Below are positions 1-3,000 of a DNA stretch of 4,142 bases, in pieces. Within the stretch, counting starts at the first letter, position 1; each line of letters begins with the position of its first letter. Position numbers: made by a program. The stretch comes from Candidatus Sulfobium sp. (GTDB lineage: Bacteria > Nitrospirota > Thermodesulfovibrionia > Thermodesulfovibrionales > UBA6898). The stretch covers positions 1 to 4,142 of the forward strand of contig JARRRI010000089.1 of NCBI GenBank assembly GCA_037380845.1. Reading direction: 5' to 3'.

Positions 1-3000
1 CCCCTGGCCTGATATCCTATGAGGACTATCCATCCGTTAGGCACCTTCTTTACCCCTGCGGTTCAATCGCCCAGAAGGGACTCTTCTTTGCTACTTCCGC
101 GACTGCGGCGAGAAAACCTTTAACATACGCCCCGCTGCGCGAAACATAGTCTTTATCCAGACGCCGCCGGAAGAAATCCAGCGAAAACAGGCCGACAAGG
201 TCCTTAAGTGCAACGATACCTCCCTCGGTTTCGGGCTGGTATCCTTTCCAGTTTTTGATGTGCTCTTCCGACCGGAAGAGGTTCATCGTGCTTCAGGCAT
301 GGGGCAGGTGTTCCATCCATTTCGAAAACGGAACTGACACATACCCCACGATCTCCTCCGGATCGGCCTTCAGGACCACCCCGTCCTTCATCTCCAGGTG
401 CATCGGTGCCCCACAGTCAAGGCAGGGGGCTTCGATTGTTACCGTCTTTCCGGGAAAAAGCCAGCAGACCGCCAGCGATTCGAAGCCTCACTCGGCGAAC
501 CACTTCTGGTGGCCGTCGATCGTGATCCTGTACTGTGTGGGGAGATTGCTGAAGGGTGCGAAACTACCTATATAGTCGGTCTCCGGAAACAGCCAGATGC
601 CCGGTATCCCCACGGACATAAGGTCGTGAAGGGCCTCTCGGGCCTCTTCGATCGGGACTTTAATCGCCGCTGCGATATCGGTATAGTGCGGGGCGCGTCC
701 CGTTGCCACCAGCCTCGTGATGATCGTATTGTACGTTTTATCCAGCACTTCTGCCTCACTCATGGCTTCTTTCCTCCTCCCTCTCGTCAAGGGTTTGAAC
801 ACGGTCCGGATCAGTACCCCTCCTGCCTCTCTGAATATCCATTCTGTGCTGTTTCGTATCACGATAAAATATCATCAACTTCTGATCGCGTTGCATCCGA
901 CTTAATAGCAATATAGCGCTGCAGGCCGCGACTGTCAAGGGCGGCGTACTATGTGATTCCGTGCAGTTAGTCATCGGTTCGGGCGGGACCGTCCGGACAG
1001 AGACCCATCGACTGTTTACCGAGGAAGAATACAGGAAAGTTATTTCGGCTCTGCCCTGATAAAGCCGCGTCCGGAAGCGAGCTGTGGACTCCTCTTTCAC
1101 TGACAATTATATTTCCTGCGATTGACTTTCCTCCTTGACGGTTTAAAATGTGATTAGAACATACGGAGGTGTGACATGGCAAAGGCAACGAAGACAAGGC
1201 TTCTCAGCTTCGACATGAAGGACAGGCCCGGACTGCTTGCGGAGGTCACTGAGGCGCTGGCCGGAGCAAAGGTGAATGTTACGGCCCTCTGCGCATACTC
1301 ATGGGACGACACCGCATATTTCGACATGACCACGGACAGCAACGCAAAGGCCAAAAAGGCTCTGGCGGCGCTGAAGATCAAGGTCGGTGAGGGAGACGCC
1401 GTCAGTGTTGAGATAGCCAACAAGGTGGGAGAACTCCGGAAGGTGGCCGAGCTCCTCGCCGGAGGAGGGATCAACATAATTTATATGTACGGCACGGCGT
1501 CTTCGGGCAGGACGTCAACAGCGGTTATCAGCACATCGGACAACAGGAAGGCGCTGAGACTCATCAATAAGTAGGGAAACATTTGCTTGTCCAGGCAAGG
1601 GCAGACTCCGTCTGTGATTTTCTTCCCCCGGGAATTTCCCTGGAGTCCCCAAAAGGCCGGCCAGGTGCCTCCAAGAAGTGATCCGGCTTTTTTTCAGTGA
1701 TGGCTGCCGGTTTCACTTGGCGAGCCTCAGATCAGCAAAGCATGCCGGCCGACGATTTACAACGGCAGCATCCCATCAGTTGACAACTTGTTAGTAAAGT
1801 TGGCAAGCTTATTAAGAAATCTTAATCTTACAGCGAAGAAAGGCCATTTCTTTCTCCTTCAGGAGAAAGAACGGGGGTCTGAATAAAGGTCTCTATTTTT
1901 CGTGTTTACCGAAGATTTTCTGACCGGCCGCCGCCTTTTCTGTTATAATTTCACAGTTGGAGTTATAGGTAATTTATTAGCCTGTGACCGCGTCCGGCTT
2001 ATTGAAAAAGAGGCGTTAAAAGTCGAAGTCCTCACCGTGAAAGAGACCGGGATAATCGTCGATACAGTATCCGACACCATGCAGGAGGCCCTTGCAAAAC
2101 GGGGGCAAGATCGAGATAAGATGGATCGGTACCTTCAGGCCGCTCTTCATTTCAGGATGGCAAGGTGCTGAAGGAACCGCCGAACCCGAAAGTCCGGGAC
2201 TAAAGCCGGGACAAAAGGAGGCGGTTTTCATGGCTGCCCGCCTGTCCCGCGGTTAAAATCGTCCCTGTTTGTCAAATGCAAAGAAGAGATTTCTTATCAT
2301 GGCTGCTCAAATCTGCGTGGGTGACGCTCGGTTTGGGGGGCCTTGCCACCCTGCCCTATTTCTACCACTCCCGGAAAGAAGGACCCCTGCGCTTCATTAA
2401 GGCGACGGAGGAGGAAAACATACCCAGGAGGGGAGTAAGACAGGTGGATTTTTCCTTCGCCGGCATGTCGCGCAAGGTTTTCCTCGTAAGGAAGGACAAG
2501 GAGTTTTTCGTCCTTTCCCCGACCTGCTCCCACCTTGGATGCCTTGTCAACTGGAACTACCTGAAGCATGAGTTCGACTGCCCCTGCCACGGCGGCAGGT
2601 ACGATATGGCCGGCCGCGTTATCGGGGGCCCCCCGCCCAAACCTTTGACCAGGCTGCCTTATGTGGTTAAAAAAGGCTTCCTTTACGTGGGGATGAGGAC
2701 GTAGTGATAGATTTCATAATAAGGCTGCTTGACCGCTGGTTTAAATTAAGGGAGCCGCACAAGAATTTTCTTGCGAGGGCGCTGCCCCCGAAGTTGAGCC
2801 CCTCCTACTGCCTCGGCGGCATGGCCTTTACGGCCTTCCTCATCTCGGCGGCCACCGGACTGCTGCTTTCCATATATTACGTCCCGTCGGCAAAAGAGGC
2901 GTATCCGAGCATAGTAATGCTCCACGATAAAGTATGGCTTGGATGGCTGATACGGAGCCTCCATAAATGGTCGGCGAATTTCCTCATAATATTCGTTCTC

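What a model noticed while it worked through the whole genome (the two positions that open the first line are those of the whole stretch)
50..763. MerB-like lyase with selenocysteine at both catalytic cysteine positions
On the minus strand of C89 one frame of 237 codons (called as two pieces, g03067 and g03066, with an uncalled middle) encodes a distant relative of organomercurial lyase MerB in which both catalytic cysteines (Cys96 and Cys159 of E. coli MerB numbering, recalled) are TGA codons: WFAE-U-GFESL and LPHA-U-STMNLF. It is a double selenoprotein of a MerB-like subfamily that is neither MerB proper nor the SaoL selenoprotein.
Evidence so far: Read-through protein: Pfam MerB PF03243 77.9 bits (cut 27; call 102); NCBIfam MerB 43.3 (cut 193) and SaoL 39.6 bits (cut 140), both far below cut. 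phmmer alignment to solved MerB2 (5c17_A) puts the two TGA on two of its Cys (lfawCais / ggtCkqihyF; call 103). Two relatives only 42% identical (2 of 80 genomes sampled in the order) also carry exactly 2 TGA at the same two sites. A hairpin CUCUUCC-GGUC-GGAAGAG lies 13 nt after the second UGA in all three. In the 1.8-billion-protein library homologues fall into full-length Cys/Cys forms (224-254 aa), ~156-aa pieces that stop just before the second site, ~91-aa pieces that stop just before the first site, and C-terminal pieces that begin after th [...]
(Added by a program. Inside this text positions count along the whole contig: contig position 1 is position 1 of the stretch shown here. "Call 12" and the like, gene names such as g00115 and contig names such as C1 are that model's own, and its searches are not shown. 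The text may have been shortened before it was handed on; [...] marks where a part breaks off. The agent that wrote the report below was given it as the finding of a first reader that could run no searches.)

Follow-up and report, generated by a model that had tools for sequence, protein, structure and literature searches.

The report
Double-selenocysteine MerB-like lyase gene
A bacterial gene encodes a relative of the methylmercury-splitting enzyme MerB in which both metal-gripping cysteines are selenocysteines, and it belongs to a widespread family from wetland and sediment DNA that gene finders cut apart or mistranslate.

Summary
Window 50-763 (minus strand) is one 237-codon frame with TGA at codons 92 and 157. 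These align with MerB Cys96 and Cys159, and Glu95 aligns with Asp99. The fold is MerB (pLDDT 95; VIA Z 17.4). It is a real double selenoprotein:
- 96 of 98 related gene copies have TGA at both sites.
- Third-codon positions vary most in all three segments.
- The genome has tRNA-Sec, selA, selB and selD, and TGA is its commonest stop.

Each TGA has its own hairpin 11-12 nt downstream with frozen synonymous sites. In 29 genes of another phylum with Cys at site 1 and TGA at site 2, only the second hairpin exists.

It is neither MerB proper nor SaoL: it scores far below both cut-offs, has no CU motif, and has no mer or SAO neighbours. No held paper lists it.

Function is inferred: a stand-alone organometal (probably organomercurial) lyase with a Se/Se/Glu site. 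The same genome carries hgcAB.

The parts
50..763 (-). Coding frame of the MerB-like double selenoprotein: 237 codons, ATG at 761-763, TAA at 50-52.
   Evidence: Searches give the frame. Pfam MerB scores 77.9 bits over residues 71-190. The AF2 model has pLDDT 95.2. Only MerB and MerB2 chains match, with VIA Z 17.4 to 14.9 for the crystal structures over model residues 3-209. Residues from about 204 to 237 lie outside the part aligned to MerB crystal structures.
488..490 (-). First UGA (codon 92), read as Sec; it aligns with MerB Cys96.
   Evidence: One search gives the alignment. TGA is here in 88 of 90 sequences and in all 8 further copies. Cys (TGC or TGT) is here in 29 of 29 genes of another phylum.
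460..476 (-). Hairpin 1, the SECIS candidate for the first UGA: GCUGGC, a 5-nt loop holding GU, then GCUGGC. The stem starts 11 nt after the UGA.
   Evidence: Stem codons are frozen: Ser96 TCG 72/73, Leu97 CTG 80/80, Cys100 TGC 74/74. Loop codons 98 and 99 vary. 99.5% of 366 cells pair, with a G-C to C-G swap in 4 sequences. RNAalifold predicts it unprompted. It is absent in the 29 genes with Cys at site 1.
479..481 (-). Glu95 codon (GAA), at the position of MerB Asp99.
   Evidence: One search gives the alignment. The residue after the first site's G-F/L/I is Glu in all 90 sequences and all 8.
413..424 (-). The C114-L-D-C117 motif. C114 aligns with the Cys of MerB and MerB2 at that position.
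   Evidence: One search gives the alignment. Both are Cys in 81 of 81 unique genes, with free TGC/TGT use. CxxC is common in the wider family.
293..295 (-). Second UGA (codon 157), read as Sec; it aligns with MerB Cys159.
   Evidence: One search gives the alignment. TGA is here in 90 of 90, 8 of 8 and 29 of 29. It is the one invariant Cys/Sec column of alignment A1.
263..280 (-). Hairpin 2, the SECIS for the second UGA: CUCUUCC-GGUC-GGAAGAG, 7 pairs. The stem starts 12 nt after the UGA.
   Evidence: Fold energy is -9.1 kcal/mol. Codons 162-166 are frozen: CTC 80/80, TTC 81/81, CGG 79/80, TCG 79/79, GAA 81/81. The hairpin is unchanged in 7 of 8 copies that are 42-63% identical; L114 is 63%, and L115 has GAT at the last stem codon, like one of the two identical G005 copies L116/L130. 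Codons +5 to +9 are frozen in another phylum: CTC, TTC, CGG and GAA each 23/23, TCG 21/21. The closing codon varies there: GAG in 18 of 23, GAC or GAT in 5.
773..780 (-). Shine-Dalgarno-like GGAGGAGG, 9 nt before the ATG.
   Evidence: Read directly from the sequence.
910..938 (-). Promoter-like site TTGACA-17-TATATT (11 of 12 matches), about 150 nt upstream of the ATG.
   Evidence: This is a consensus match only, not evidence of function.

Best explanation
The gene encodes a soluble 237-residue enzyme of the MerB (organomercurial lyase) fold. Both metal-binding catalytic cysteines are selenocysteines (U92, U157), and the proton-donating Asp is a Glu (E95). Each UGA is recoded by SelB and tRNA-Sec through its own short in-frame hairpin 11-12 nt downstream. 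Shown here: the frame, the fold, the alignment of U/E/U on MerB Cys96/Asp99/Cys159, selection on the whole frame, the two conserved hairpins that come and go with their UGA, and the Sec machinery. Inferred: the two selenolates clamp a soft metal that carries a carbon ligand, most likely an organomercurial such as methylmercury. Glu95 then protonates the leaving carbon, as Asp99 does in MerB. The metal, held between two Se atoms, is passed on to thiols, perhaps to the conserved C114xxC117 pair. The enzyme works alone, outside any mer or SAO gene cluster. My odds are about 0.93 that it is a genuine double selenoprotein and about 0.45 that it is an organometal lyase.
For: Frame and sites. Fold: pLDDT 95.2 and pTM 0.91. 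All 11 Foldseek hits at E<=0.001 are MerB or MerB2. VIA gives Z 17.4 with rmsd 3.4 over 191 residues for 5c17, and Z 15.7 for 3f0o_B; the next unrelated row has Z 4.5. Conservation of the TGA: 88 of 90, then 8 of 8. Coding selection: mean pairwise differences at codon positions 1/2/3 are 0.10/0.07/0.44 before the first TGA, 0.19/0.11/0.47 between the two, and 0.23/0.13/0.43 after the second. Hairpins: synonymous freeze only in the two stems, pair counts and RNAalifold. Internal control: in 29 genes of another phylum, site 1 is Cys and has no hairpin and free synonymous codons, while site 2 is TGA and keeps the hairpin with frozen codons +5 to +9, including GAA in 23 of 23. Machinery: tRNA-Sec 73 bits, selB 331.6, selA 620.3, selD with its own TGA; aragorn finds tRNA-SeC(tca). 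TGA closes 1168 of 2393 long frames, so there is no code change. Four other runs' contigs cover both TGA without differences. The acid residue is kept as Glu in all U/U copies. Cys96, Asp99 and Cys159 are MerB's active-site residues (passages of 10.1101/2022.07.06.499078). The genome also encodes HgcA (280 bits against 275) and HgcB (121.2 against 99), so it may make methylmercury.
Against: No activity, selenium content or expression was measured. No run on record as RNA holds the stretch. No gene neighbourhood points to mercury: about 70 loci have varied neighbours. No MerA reaches its cut-off in this 100%-complete genome (best 368.5 against 454.45). A bis-selenolate should hold Hg(II) very tightly (general chemistry, recalled), which makes turnover doubtful without a partner. 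Hairpin 1 alone folds at only -6.5 kcal/mol, above the -7.5 limit of the published bSECIS model. The promoter/terminator scan also flags it as terminator-like. Its compensatory swap is in one clade, probably one event. L065 has Cys at site 1 yet keeps hairpin 1. I could not measure the Se-Se distance because no model coordinates were available. The HgcA motif is in 5 of the 7 genomes with two TGA, but the background in their families is as high: 53 of 64 in f25 and 7 of 14 in f1.
Confidence: 0.5

Rival explanations
1. It is a high-affinity trap, carrier or sensor for a soft metal (Hg, Cu, Ag, Cd). The two selenolates bind the ion, and no carbon-metal bond is cut.
For: MerB crystal entries hold Hg at this site, and a D99S variant of MerB is among the solved entries (titles). 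The Haft and Gwadz passages say MerB binds other metals there and that one residue change gives a copper-binding form. No MerA partner reaches its cut-off. Se ligands favour tight binding (recalled chemistry).
Against: The acidic residue at the Asp99 position is kept as Glu in all 98 copies with Sec at site 2 that I examined, and as Glu or Asp in most of the wider family. That is what a proton donor needs and a plain binding site does not. No transporter or regulator is a conserved neighbour.
Confidence: 0.2
2. It is a redox enzyme. U92 and U157 cycle between selenols and a diselenide, or a selenenyl-sulfide with C114/C117, acting on an unknown non-metal substrate.
For: Most prokaryotic selenoproteins are thought to be redox enzymes (abstract of PMC9312934). 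A CxxC pair is invariant in the clade. Glutaredoxin-domain genes lie next to 2 loci, L027 and L111.
Against: No known MerB-fold protein is a redox enzyme; every solved relative is a lyase or metal-bound form. The two glutaredoxin neighbours are 2 of about 70 loci.
Confidence: 0.15
3. It is a SaoL, the known MerB-like selenoprotein of the SAO gene cluster.
For: It has the same Pfam domain, Sec at the position of MerB Cys159, and an anaerobic host.
Against: The SaoL model scores 39.6 bits against a cut-off of 140, and 22-45 bits for five other family members. The residue before U157 is Ala, not Cys, so there is no CU motif. SaoL keeps Cys at the first site, whereas this protein has Sec. No SaoL over cut-off is in the genome. 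No nine-gene SAO neighbourhood lies beside any locus.
Confidence: 0.03
4. It is a dead or split gene. The TGA are true stops, and only a 91-residue N-terminal piece (or separate pieces) is made.
For: Gene callers split it. The library holds 41 pieces that end just before site 1. Hairpin 1 followed by UUUUU looks like a terminator to a consensus scan.
Against: Both TGA are kept in 96 of 98 copies down to 42% identity. Selection acts on the protein after each TGA. Homologues have Cys at exactly these columns. The T-run after hairpin 1 varies at codons 102 and 103, while the stem does not.
Confidence: 0.02

Closest known systems
MerB, organomercurial (alkylmercury) lyase of mer operons (Pfam PF03243; NCBIfam NF009710 and NF033555; PDB 3f0o, 3f0p, 1s6l)
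   Same: It has the same fold over residues 3-209 (Z 14.9-15.7 for the crystal structures of E. coli MerB). It matches the same Pfam domain. It has the same three active-site positions.
   Different: Identity is 18-20%, and scores are 43.3 and 35.2 bits against cut-offs of 193 and 200. It has Sec, Glu, Sec instead of Cys, Asp, Cys; the second Cys of MerB's CC pair is Ser here. It has an extra C-terminal helix and a PFW motif (about residues 204-237). It has a second Cys that makes CxxC at 114-117. There is no mer operon and no MerA over cut-off in the genome.
SaoL, MerB-like organometallic lyase selenoprotein of the SAO locus (NCBIfam NF040728; Haft and Gwadz, bioRxiv 10.1101/2022.07.06.499078)
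   Same: It is a MerB-fold selenoprotein of anaerobes with Sec at the position of MerB Cys159. It is truncated in databases at that TGA (passages).
   Different: SaoL has one Sec in a CU motif and keeps Cys at the first site and Asp at the acid site. This protein has two Sec 65 codons apart, Ala before the second, and Glu as the acid. It scores 39.6 bits against 140. SaoL marks a nine-gene cluster, whereas this gene stands alone.
MerB2 of Bacillus megaterium (PDB 5c17)
   Same: It is the best sequence match (E 3.4e-08) and the best structural match (Z 17.4) among solved chains.
   Different: MerB2 has Cys at both sites and Ser, not an acid, three residues after the first Cys in the alignment. 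Identity is 20%.
[quoted passage not shown]
   Same: They have two Sec that could bind one metal. The review says only a small subset of 119 families or subfamilies has 2-3 Sec (passages).
   Different: Their two Sec are 3 residues apart in one motif. Here they are 65 residues apart in sequence, meet only in the fold, and each has its own hairpin.

Membership tests
MerB proper (organomercurial lyase, NCBIfam NF009710 / NF033555) | Score at or above the curated cut-off of the equivalog model | tested here: not met
   43.3 bits against 193, and 35.2 against 200.
MerB proper (organomercurial lyase, NCBIfam NF009710 / NF033555) | MerB fold and Pfam PF03243 domain | tested here: met
   77.9 bits against 27. 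VIA Z is 17.4 to 14.9 for the MerB and MerB2 crystal structures and 10.8 for the NMR model, and nothing else scores above 4.5.
MerB proper (organomercurial lyase, NCBIfam NF009710 / NF033555) | Active-site residues Cys96, Asp99, Cys159 (named in passages of 10.1101/2022.07.06.499078) | tested here: not met
   The three positions align but hold Sec, Glu and Sec. They are chemically analogous, not identical.
MerB proper (organomercurial lyase, NCBIfam NF009710 / NF033555) | Lies in a mer operon with merA, merR or transport genes (recalled as typical) | tested here: not met
   No mer family appears among the neighbours of about 70 loci. No MerA is over cut-off in the genome. The window's own downstream side is only 49 nt long.
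MerB proper (organomercurial lyase, NCBIfam NF009710 / NF033555) | Cleaves Hg-C bonds | not testable with these tools
   This needs an enzyme assay.
SaoL (NF040728) | Score at or above 140 bits | tested here: not met
   39.6 bits for the protein and 33.7 bits in the genome search; nothing else in the genome matches.
SaoL (NF040728) | CU (Cys-Sec) dipeptide at the second site | tested here: not met
   The context is LPHA-U-S. The residue before U is A, S, V, I or L in the relatives.
SaoL (NF040728) | Marker of the nine-gene SAO neighbourhood | tested here: not met
   Neighbours are varied, and no ABC-transporter cluster recurs.
SaoL (NF040728) | Sec aligned with MerB Cys159 | tested here: met
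   U157 aligns with Cys159.
Bacterial selenoprotein gene (Sec-UGA with bSECIS; model in Fig. 2 legend of PMC13188914) | In-frame UGA aligned with Cys in homologues, with a conserved frame beyond it | tested here: met
Bacterial selenoprotein gene (Sec-UGA with bSECIS; model in Fig. 2 legend of PMC13188914) | Apical loop of 3-9 nt, upper stem of 4-16 bp, G in the first two loop positions, and 16-37 nt from the UGA to the loop | tested here: met
   Hairpin 2 has loop GGUC, 7 bp, and 19 nt to the loop. Hairpin 1 has loop (G/A)GUNU, 6 bp, and 17 nt to the loop.
Bacterial selenoprotein gene (Sec-UGA with bSECIS; model in Fig. 2 legend of PMC13188914) | Minimum free energy at or below -7.5 kcal/mol | tested here: inconclusive
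   Hairpin 2 folds at -9.1. Hairpin 1 alone folds at -6.5. The 73-nt stretch after UGA1 folds at -24.1, but with a z-score of only -1.0.
Bacterial selenoprotein gene (Sec-UGA with bSECIS; model in Fig. 2 legend of PMC13188914) | tRNA-Sec, SelA, SelB and SelD in the genome | tested here: met
Bacterial selenoprotein gene (Sec-UGA with bSECIS; model in Fig. 2 legend of PMC13188914) | Selenium in the protein | not testable with these tools
   This needs mass spectrometry or 75Se labelling.

The most novel reading that the evidence does not exclude
This family is a selenium-dependent methylmercury (organometal) lyase that works without any mer operon in anaerobes, including lineages that carry hgcAB and so make methylmercury. 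Because gene finders split it at the TGA or read the TGA as Trp, merB-based surveys of wetlands and sediments have missed a common demethylase. Its bis-selenolate site would also be a direct enzymatic meeting point of the mercury and selenium cycles.
Probability: 0.3. Interest if true: 0.85.

Novelty: new variant of a known kind. Interest (0 to 1): 0.68.

Why it matters
MerB is the only known enzyme that cuts the mercury-carbon bond, and merB is the marker used to map methylmercury breakdown in nature. This is a second MerB-like selenoprotein family, distinct from SaoL. Its commonest form replaces both metal ligands with selenium.

The family is common:
- A capped metagenome scan returned at least 496 encoding stretches.
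- It is in 76 of 251 genomes of one phylum, mostly as the one-Sec form.
- The two-Sec form is in 7 of 401 genomes of the window's phylum.

Databases hold it only as fragments or with Trp at both sites. No NCBIfam model reaches its cut-off on the six family members scanned.

If it is a lyase, it offers a testable candidate for mer-independent demethylation in anoxic habitats. It would also be a natural experiment on what selenium does to Hg-C protonolysis. It is a clean case of two separate bacterial SECIS elements in one short gene, each gained or lost together with its UGA.

Tried and rejected
- Rfam scan of the window at E up to 10: only two chance-level hits elsewhere in the window. No curated model for these hairpins matched, which says nothing either way.
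- Long-range helix after UGA1: the window's MFE fold pairs the bases right after UGA1 with a stretch about 50 nt downstream (z -1.0). RNAalifold on 72 sequences does not keep it, so I dropped it.
- Hairpin 1 as an intrinsic terminator (flagged): rejected as the main reading, because the T-run varies at synonymous sites while the stem does not.
- Conserved neighbours: none. A NIL+Fer4 gene recurs in 3 loci, IGPD in 3 and glutaredoxin in 2, and these look like shared ancestry of close loci.
- Link with hgcA: a short degenerate pattern for the HgcA cap-helix motif (recalled) hits 97 of 401 genomes and 5 of the 7 with the two-TGA gene. The families concerned have equally high background, so no association is shown.
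- Expression: no RNA holder is listed.
- Second match in the genome (C18, 37 residues): it looks like a short remnant of the C-terminal part and was not pursued.
- DNA of close Cys/Cys forms, to see whether hairpin 2 relaxes: none with the full gene was among the loci fetched, so this was not tested.
- A tree with authentic MerB and SaoL sequences was not built, because none were fetched.
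Full report
THE OBSERVATION

On the minus strand of the window, one frame runs from ATG 761-763 to TAA 50-52 (237 codons). It is preceded by GGAGGAGG nine bases upstream. It holds exactly two in-frame TGA: codon 92 (window 488-490) and codon 157 (window 293-295). Read through, the protein matches Pfam MerB at 77.9 bits against a cut-off of 27. It stays far below the curated cut-offs of MerB (43.3 against 193; 35.2 against 200) and of SaoL (39.6 against 140).

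phmmer against all solved chains finds only MerB2 (5c17, E 3.4e-08) and E. coli MerB. The alignments put U92 on the first Cys, E95 on the Asp three residues later, and U157 on the first Cys of MerB's CC pair. These are Cys96, Asp99 and Cys159, which passages of the Haft and Gwadz preprint name as MerB's active-site residues.

IS IT A REAL SELENOPROTEIN?

Five lines of evidence agree.

1. Conservation of the TGA. A scan of species genomes gave 9 loci. A scan of metagenome contigs gave at least 496 encoding stretches, of which the best 80 were kept. Of 90 sequences (window plus 89 loci), 88 have TGA at both sites and 2 have Cys at site 1 and TGA at site 2. A sample of 401 genomes of the window's phylum has 7 genomes with 9 copies (the window's own and 8 others), all with two TGA, down to 42% identity.

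2. Selection on the frame. In 81 unique genes, mean pairwise differences at codon positions 1, 2 and 3 are:
   - 0.10/0.07/0.44 before the first TGA;
   - 0.19/0.11/0.47 between the two;
   - 0.23/0.13/0.43 after the second.
   So all three segments are kept as protein.

3. Homologues with Cys. In 26 full-length Cys/Cys relatives, the column of U157 is invariant Cys and that of U92 is nearly so.

4. Sec machinery and genetic code. The genome has tRNA-Sec (73 bits; aragorn reads tRNA-SeC with anticodon tca), selB, selA, and a selD that itself carries one TGA. TGA closes 1168 of 2393 long frames, so it is the normal stop and not a reassigned codon.

5. Independent assemblies. Contigs of four other runs cover both TGA with no difference. 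The only difference listed is a synonymous change in the Cys117 codon. These runs may share a campaign with the source.

TWO SECIS ELEMENTS

After the second UGA lies CUCUUCC-GGUC-GGAAGAG (window 263-280, -9.1 kcal/mol). There is in fact a short hairpin at window 460-476: GCUGGC, a five-base loop holding GU, then GCUGGC (-6.5 kcal/mol). It starts 11 nt after the UGA.

The strongest evidence for both is synonymous-site freezing in 81 unique genes.
- Hairpin 1 stem codons: Ser96 is TCG in 72 of 73, Leu97 CTG in 80 of 80, and Cys100 TGC in 74 of 74.
- Hairpin 1 loop codons vary: Ala98 is GCA in 61 and GCG in 18; Val99 is GTT in 53, GTC in 21 and GTA in 5.
- Hairpin 2: Leu162 CTC 80/80, Phe163 TTC 81/81, Arg164 CGG 79/80, Ser165 TCG 79/79, Glu166 GAA 81/81.
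- Elsewhere in the gene, Leu, Ser and Arg codons carry 0.9 to 2.3 bits of entropy. The other two Cys use TGC and TGT freely (59/22 and 61/20).

On 61 distinct sequences, 99.5% of 366 cells of hairpin 1 form a pair. No shuffle of 500 reaches that, and slid registers reach at most 61.5%. One pair switches G-C to C-G in four sequences of one clade, and three pairs change G-U to G-C or the like. RNAalifold predicts both hairpins without prompting. Both fit the published bSECIS model in loop size, stem length, G at the start of the loop, and distance to the loop (17 and 19 nt). Hairpin 1 alone misses the model's energy limit (Fig. 2 legend of PMC13188914).

THE INTERNAL CONTROL

In another phylum, 76 of 251 genomes carry a homologue, and most have one TGA. 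In the 29 loci examined there, site 1 is Cys (TGC or TGT). The bases downstream encode different residues, cannot form hairpin 1, and vary freely at synonymous sites.

Site 2 is TGA in 29 of 29. It is followed by hairpin 2 with frozen codons +5 to +9: CTC, TTC, CGG and GAA each in 23 of 23, and TCG in 21 of 21. These genes otherwise prefer GAG. Its closing codon varies: GAG in 18 of 23, GAC or GAT in 5. So each hairpin is present where its UGA is present.

Two rows with Cys at site 1 were seen earlier.
- L031 has both of the only two unpaired cells. L031 lies in genome G401, which flags as unpublished. The statements about L031 rest on that genome and may not be published without the depositors' permission. 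One search makes the same point without it.
- L065 has Cys but keeps the hairpin. It is nested among U/U genes in the tree, which fits a recent change.

FOLD AND FAMILY

The AlphaFold2 model built on 34 sequences has pLDDT 95.2 and pTM 0.91. All 11 Foldseek hits at E<=0.001 are MerB or MerB2. VIA-align gives Z 17.4 (rmsd 3.4, 191 residues, model 3-203) for MerB2 and 15.7 for MerB. The next unrelated rows reach Z 4.5 and cover only the N-terminal winged-helix-like 70 residues, which MerB shares. Residues from about 204 to 237, a long helix and a PFW motif, lie outside the part aligned to MerB crystal structures. They are conserved in the wider family.

A CxxC pair (C114, C117) is invariant in the clade. 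Glu95 is present in all 98 copies.

A quick tree was built from 110 rows, after 1 of 98 loci was dropped for an extra stop. Thirteen database proteins were added, 6 of them scored U/U because they carry Trp at both sites. The tree needs at least 5 changes among the states U/U, C/U and C/C. The root is not secure.

HOW DATABASES HOLD IT

The 1.84-billion-protein library has 703 hits at E<=0.001. Among the best 150, 41 stop just before site 1, 17 have Cys at site 1 and stop before site 2, and 25 are full-length Cys/Cys.

Among 14 proteins fetched from the second search, the 'full-length' entries of 232-238 residues from metagenome sources carry Trp at both sites. That is the signature of a gene caller that chose a TGA=Trp code. 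Where a source names these proteins, they are mostly called hypothetical protein, and a few alkylmercury lyase. Five other family members also score 22-45 bits on the MerB and SaoL models, so no NCBIfam model of release 20.0 reaches its cut-off on any member scanned.

CONTEXT

The gene stands alone.
- In the window, its upstream neighbours on the other strand are an ACT-domain gene and a Rieske/cytochrome b set. Only 49 nt lie downstream.
- Across about 70 loci with flanks, the neighbours are unrelated to each other and include no mer or SAO gene.
- The genome (100% complete by marker genes) has no MerA over cut-off (best 368.5 against 454.45) and no SaoL.
- It does encode HgcA (280 bits against 275 for the corrinoid part; the membrane part lies in another frame of this assembly) and HgcB (121.2 against 99). 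The organism may therefore methylate mercury.
- The HgcA motif is in 5 of the 7 genomes with the two-TGA gene, but their families have an equally high background. I claim no association.

MECHANISM

Shown here:
- a MerB fold with Sec, Glu and Sec at the three catalytic positions;
- two working-looking SECIS elements;
- the machinery to read them.

Inferred from what is established for MerB (recalled: the two Cys bind Hg, and Asp99 delivers the proton to the leaving carbon), the two selenolates bind an organometal cation and Glu95 protonates the carbon. Sec has a lower pKa and higher nucleophilicity than Cys (abstract of PMC11431864, seen in the listing). This would favour attack on the metal. 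It should also make release of Hg(II) hard, so a thiol partner is needed, and the invariant CxxC pair is a candidate. With no MerA, the fate of the metal is open. The tight-binding and redox rivals cannot be excluded without an assay.

COMPARISON AND NOVELTY

The only MerB-like selenoprotein in the held literature is SaoL. It has one Sec in a CU motif and sits inside the nine-gene SAO cluster (passages of 10.1101/2022.07.06.499078). It is the only MerB entry in the tables of two reviews (passages of PMC9312934 and PMC13188914).

The 2026 review counts 119 families or subfamilies, treats a different Sec position or motif as a separate subfamily, and says only a small subset has 2-3 Sec. Its multi-Sec examples that I saw have adjacent Sec (UxxU, CxU).

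Four full-text searches found no paper describing a MerB-like protein with Sec at the Cys96 position or with two Sec:
- selenoprotein + MerB + selenocysteine;
- organomercurial lyase + selenocysteine;
- MerB, selenoprotein or Nitrospirota;
- alkylmercury or organomercury lyase with selenoprotein or selenocysteine.

Subscription-only papers and supplements were not seen.

I file this as a new variant of a known kind: a second, stand-alone MerB-like selenoprotein family whose main form has both metal ligands as Sec and two separate SECIS elements.

Noticed in passing
G000 contig C20, locus L142:1123-2473: The same genome carries hgcA and hgcB. The HgcA corrinoid part scores 280 bits against a cut-off of 275. 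The membrane part sits in a different frame from position 1845, which is either a frameshift or an assembly error. HgcB scores 121.2 bits against 99, and a TGA follows directly after its C-terminal CC.
   Followed up: partly
window 241-320: In four other metagenome runs, summed contig depth rises from about 30 to 126-483 over the second hairpin, and many short contigs end there. This fits many different organisms in those samples sharing the identical hairpin sequence.
   Followed up: no
G000 contig C18, locus L002:1453-1899 (minus): A 37-residue stretch is 51% identical to residues 186-222 of the protein (its C-terminal part) inside an otherwise unrelated frame. It is possibly a remnant of a second copy.
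   Followed up: partly
window 2276-3735: Three tightly packed genes encode a Rieske protein, a cytochrome b and a cytochrome b C-terminal (subunit IV-like) protein. Together they form a bc1/b6f-type complex.
   Followed up: no
window 1575-2275: This is a 700-nt stretch with no ORF that has a Pfam match (the 89-residue ORF at 1902-2171 has none) and no Rfam match.
   Followed up: no
window 3869-3975: Two perfect or near-perfect inverted repeats (11 nt at 3869-3891, 13 nt at 3950-3975) lie in a stretch after the cytochrome genes with no clear coding frame.
   Followed up: no
L027:6001-6726: In this close relative, the frame passes a third TGA just after the conserved PFWAIEP end. That TGA is probably its true stop, so one mRNA would use UGA both as Sec and as stop.
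   Followed up: no
genomes G478 and G476: Two homologues in the other phylum are reported with 3 TGA inside the match, so forms with a third Sec site may exist.
   Followed up: no
L032 and L033: Two relatives from species genomes have a frame break upstream of site 1 but keep both TGA and both hairpins. The break may be an assembly error or recent decay.
   Followed up: no
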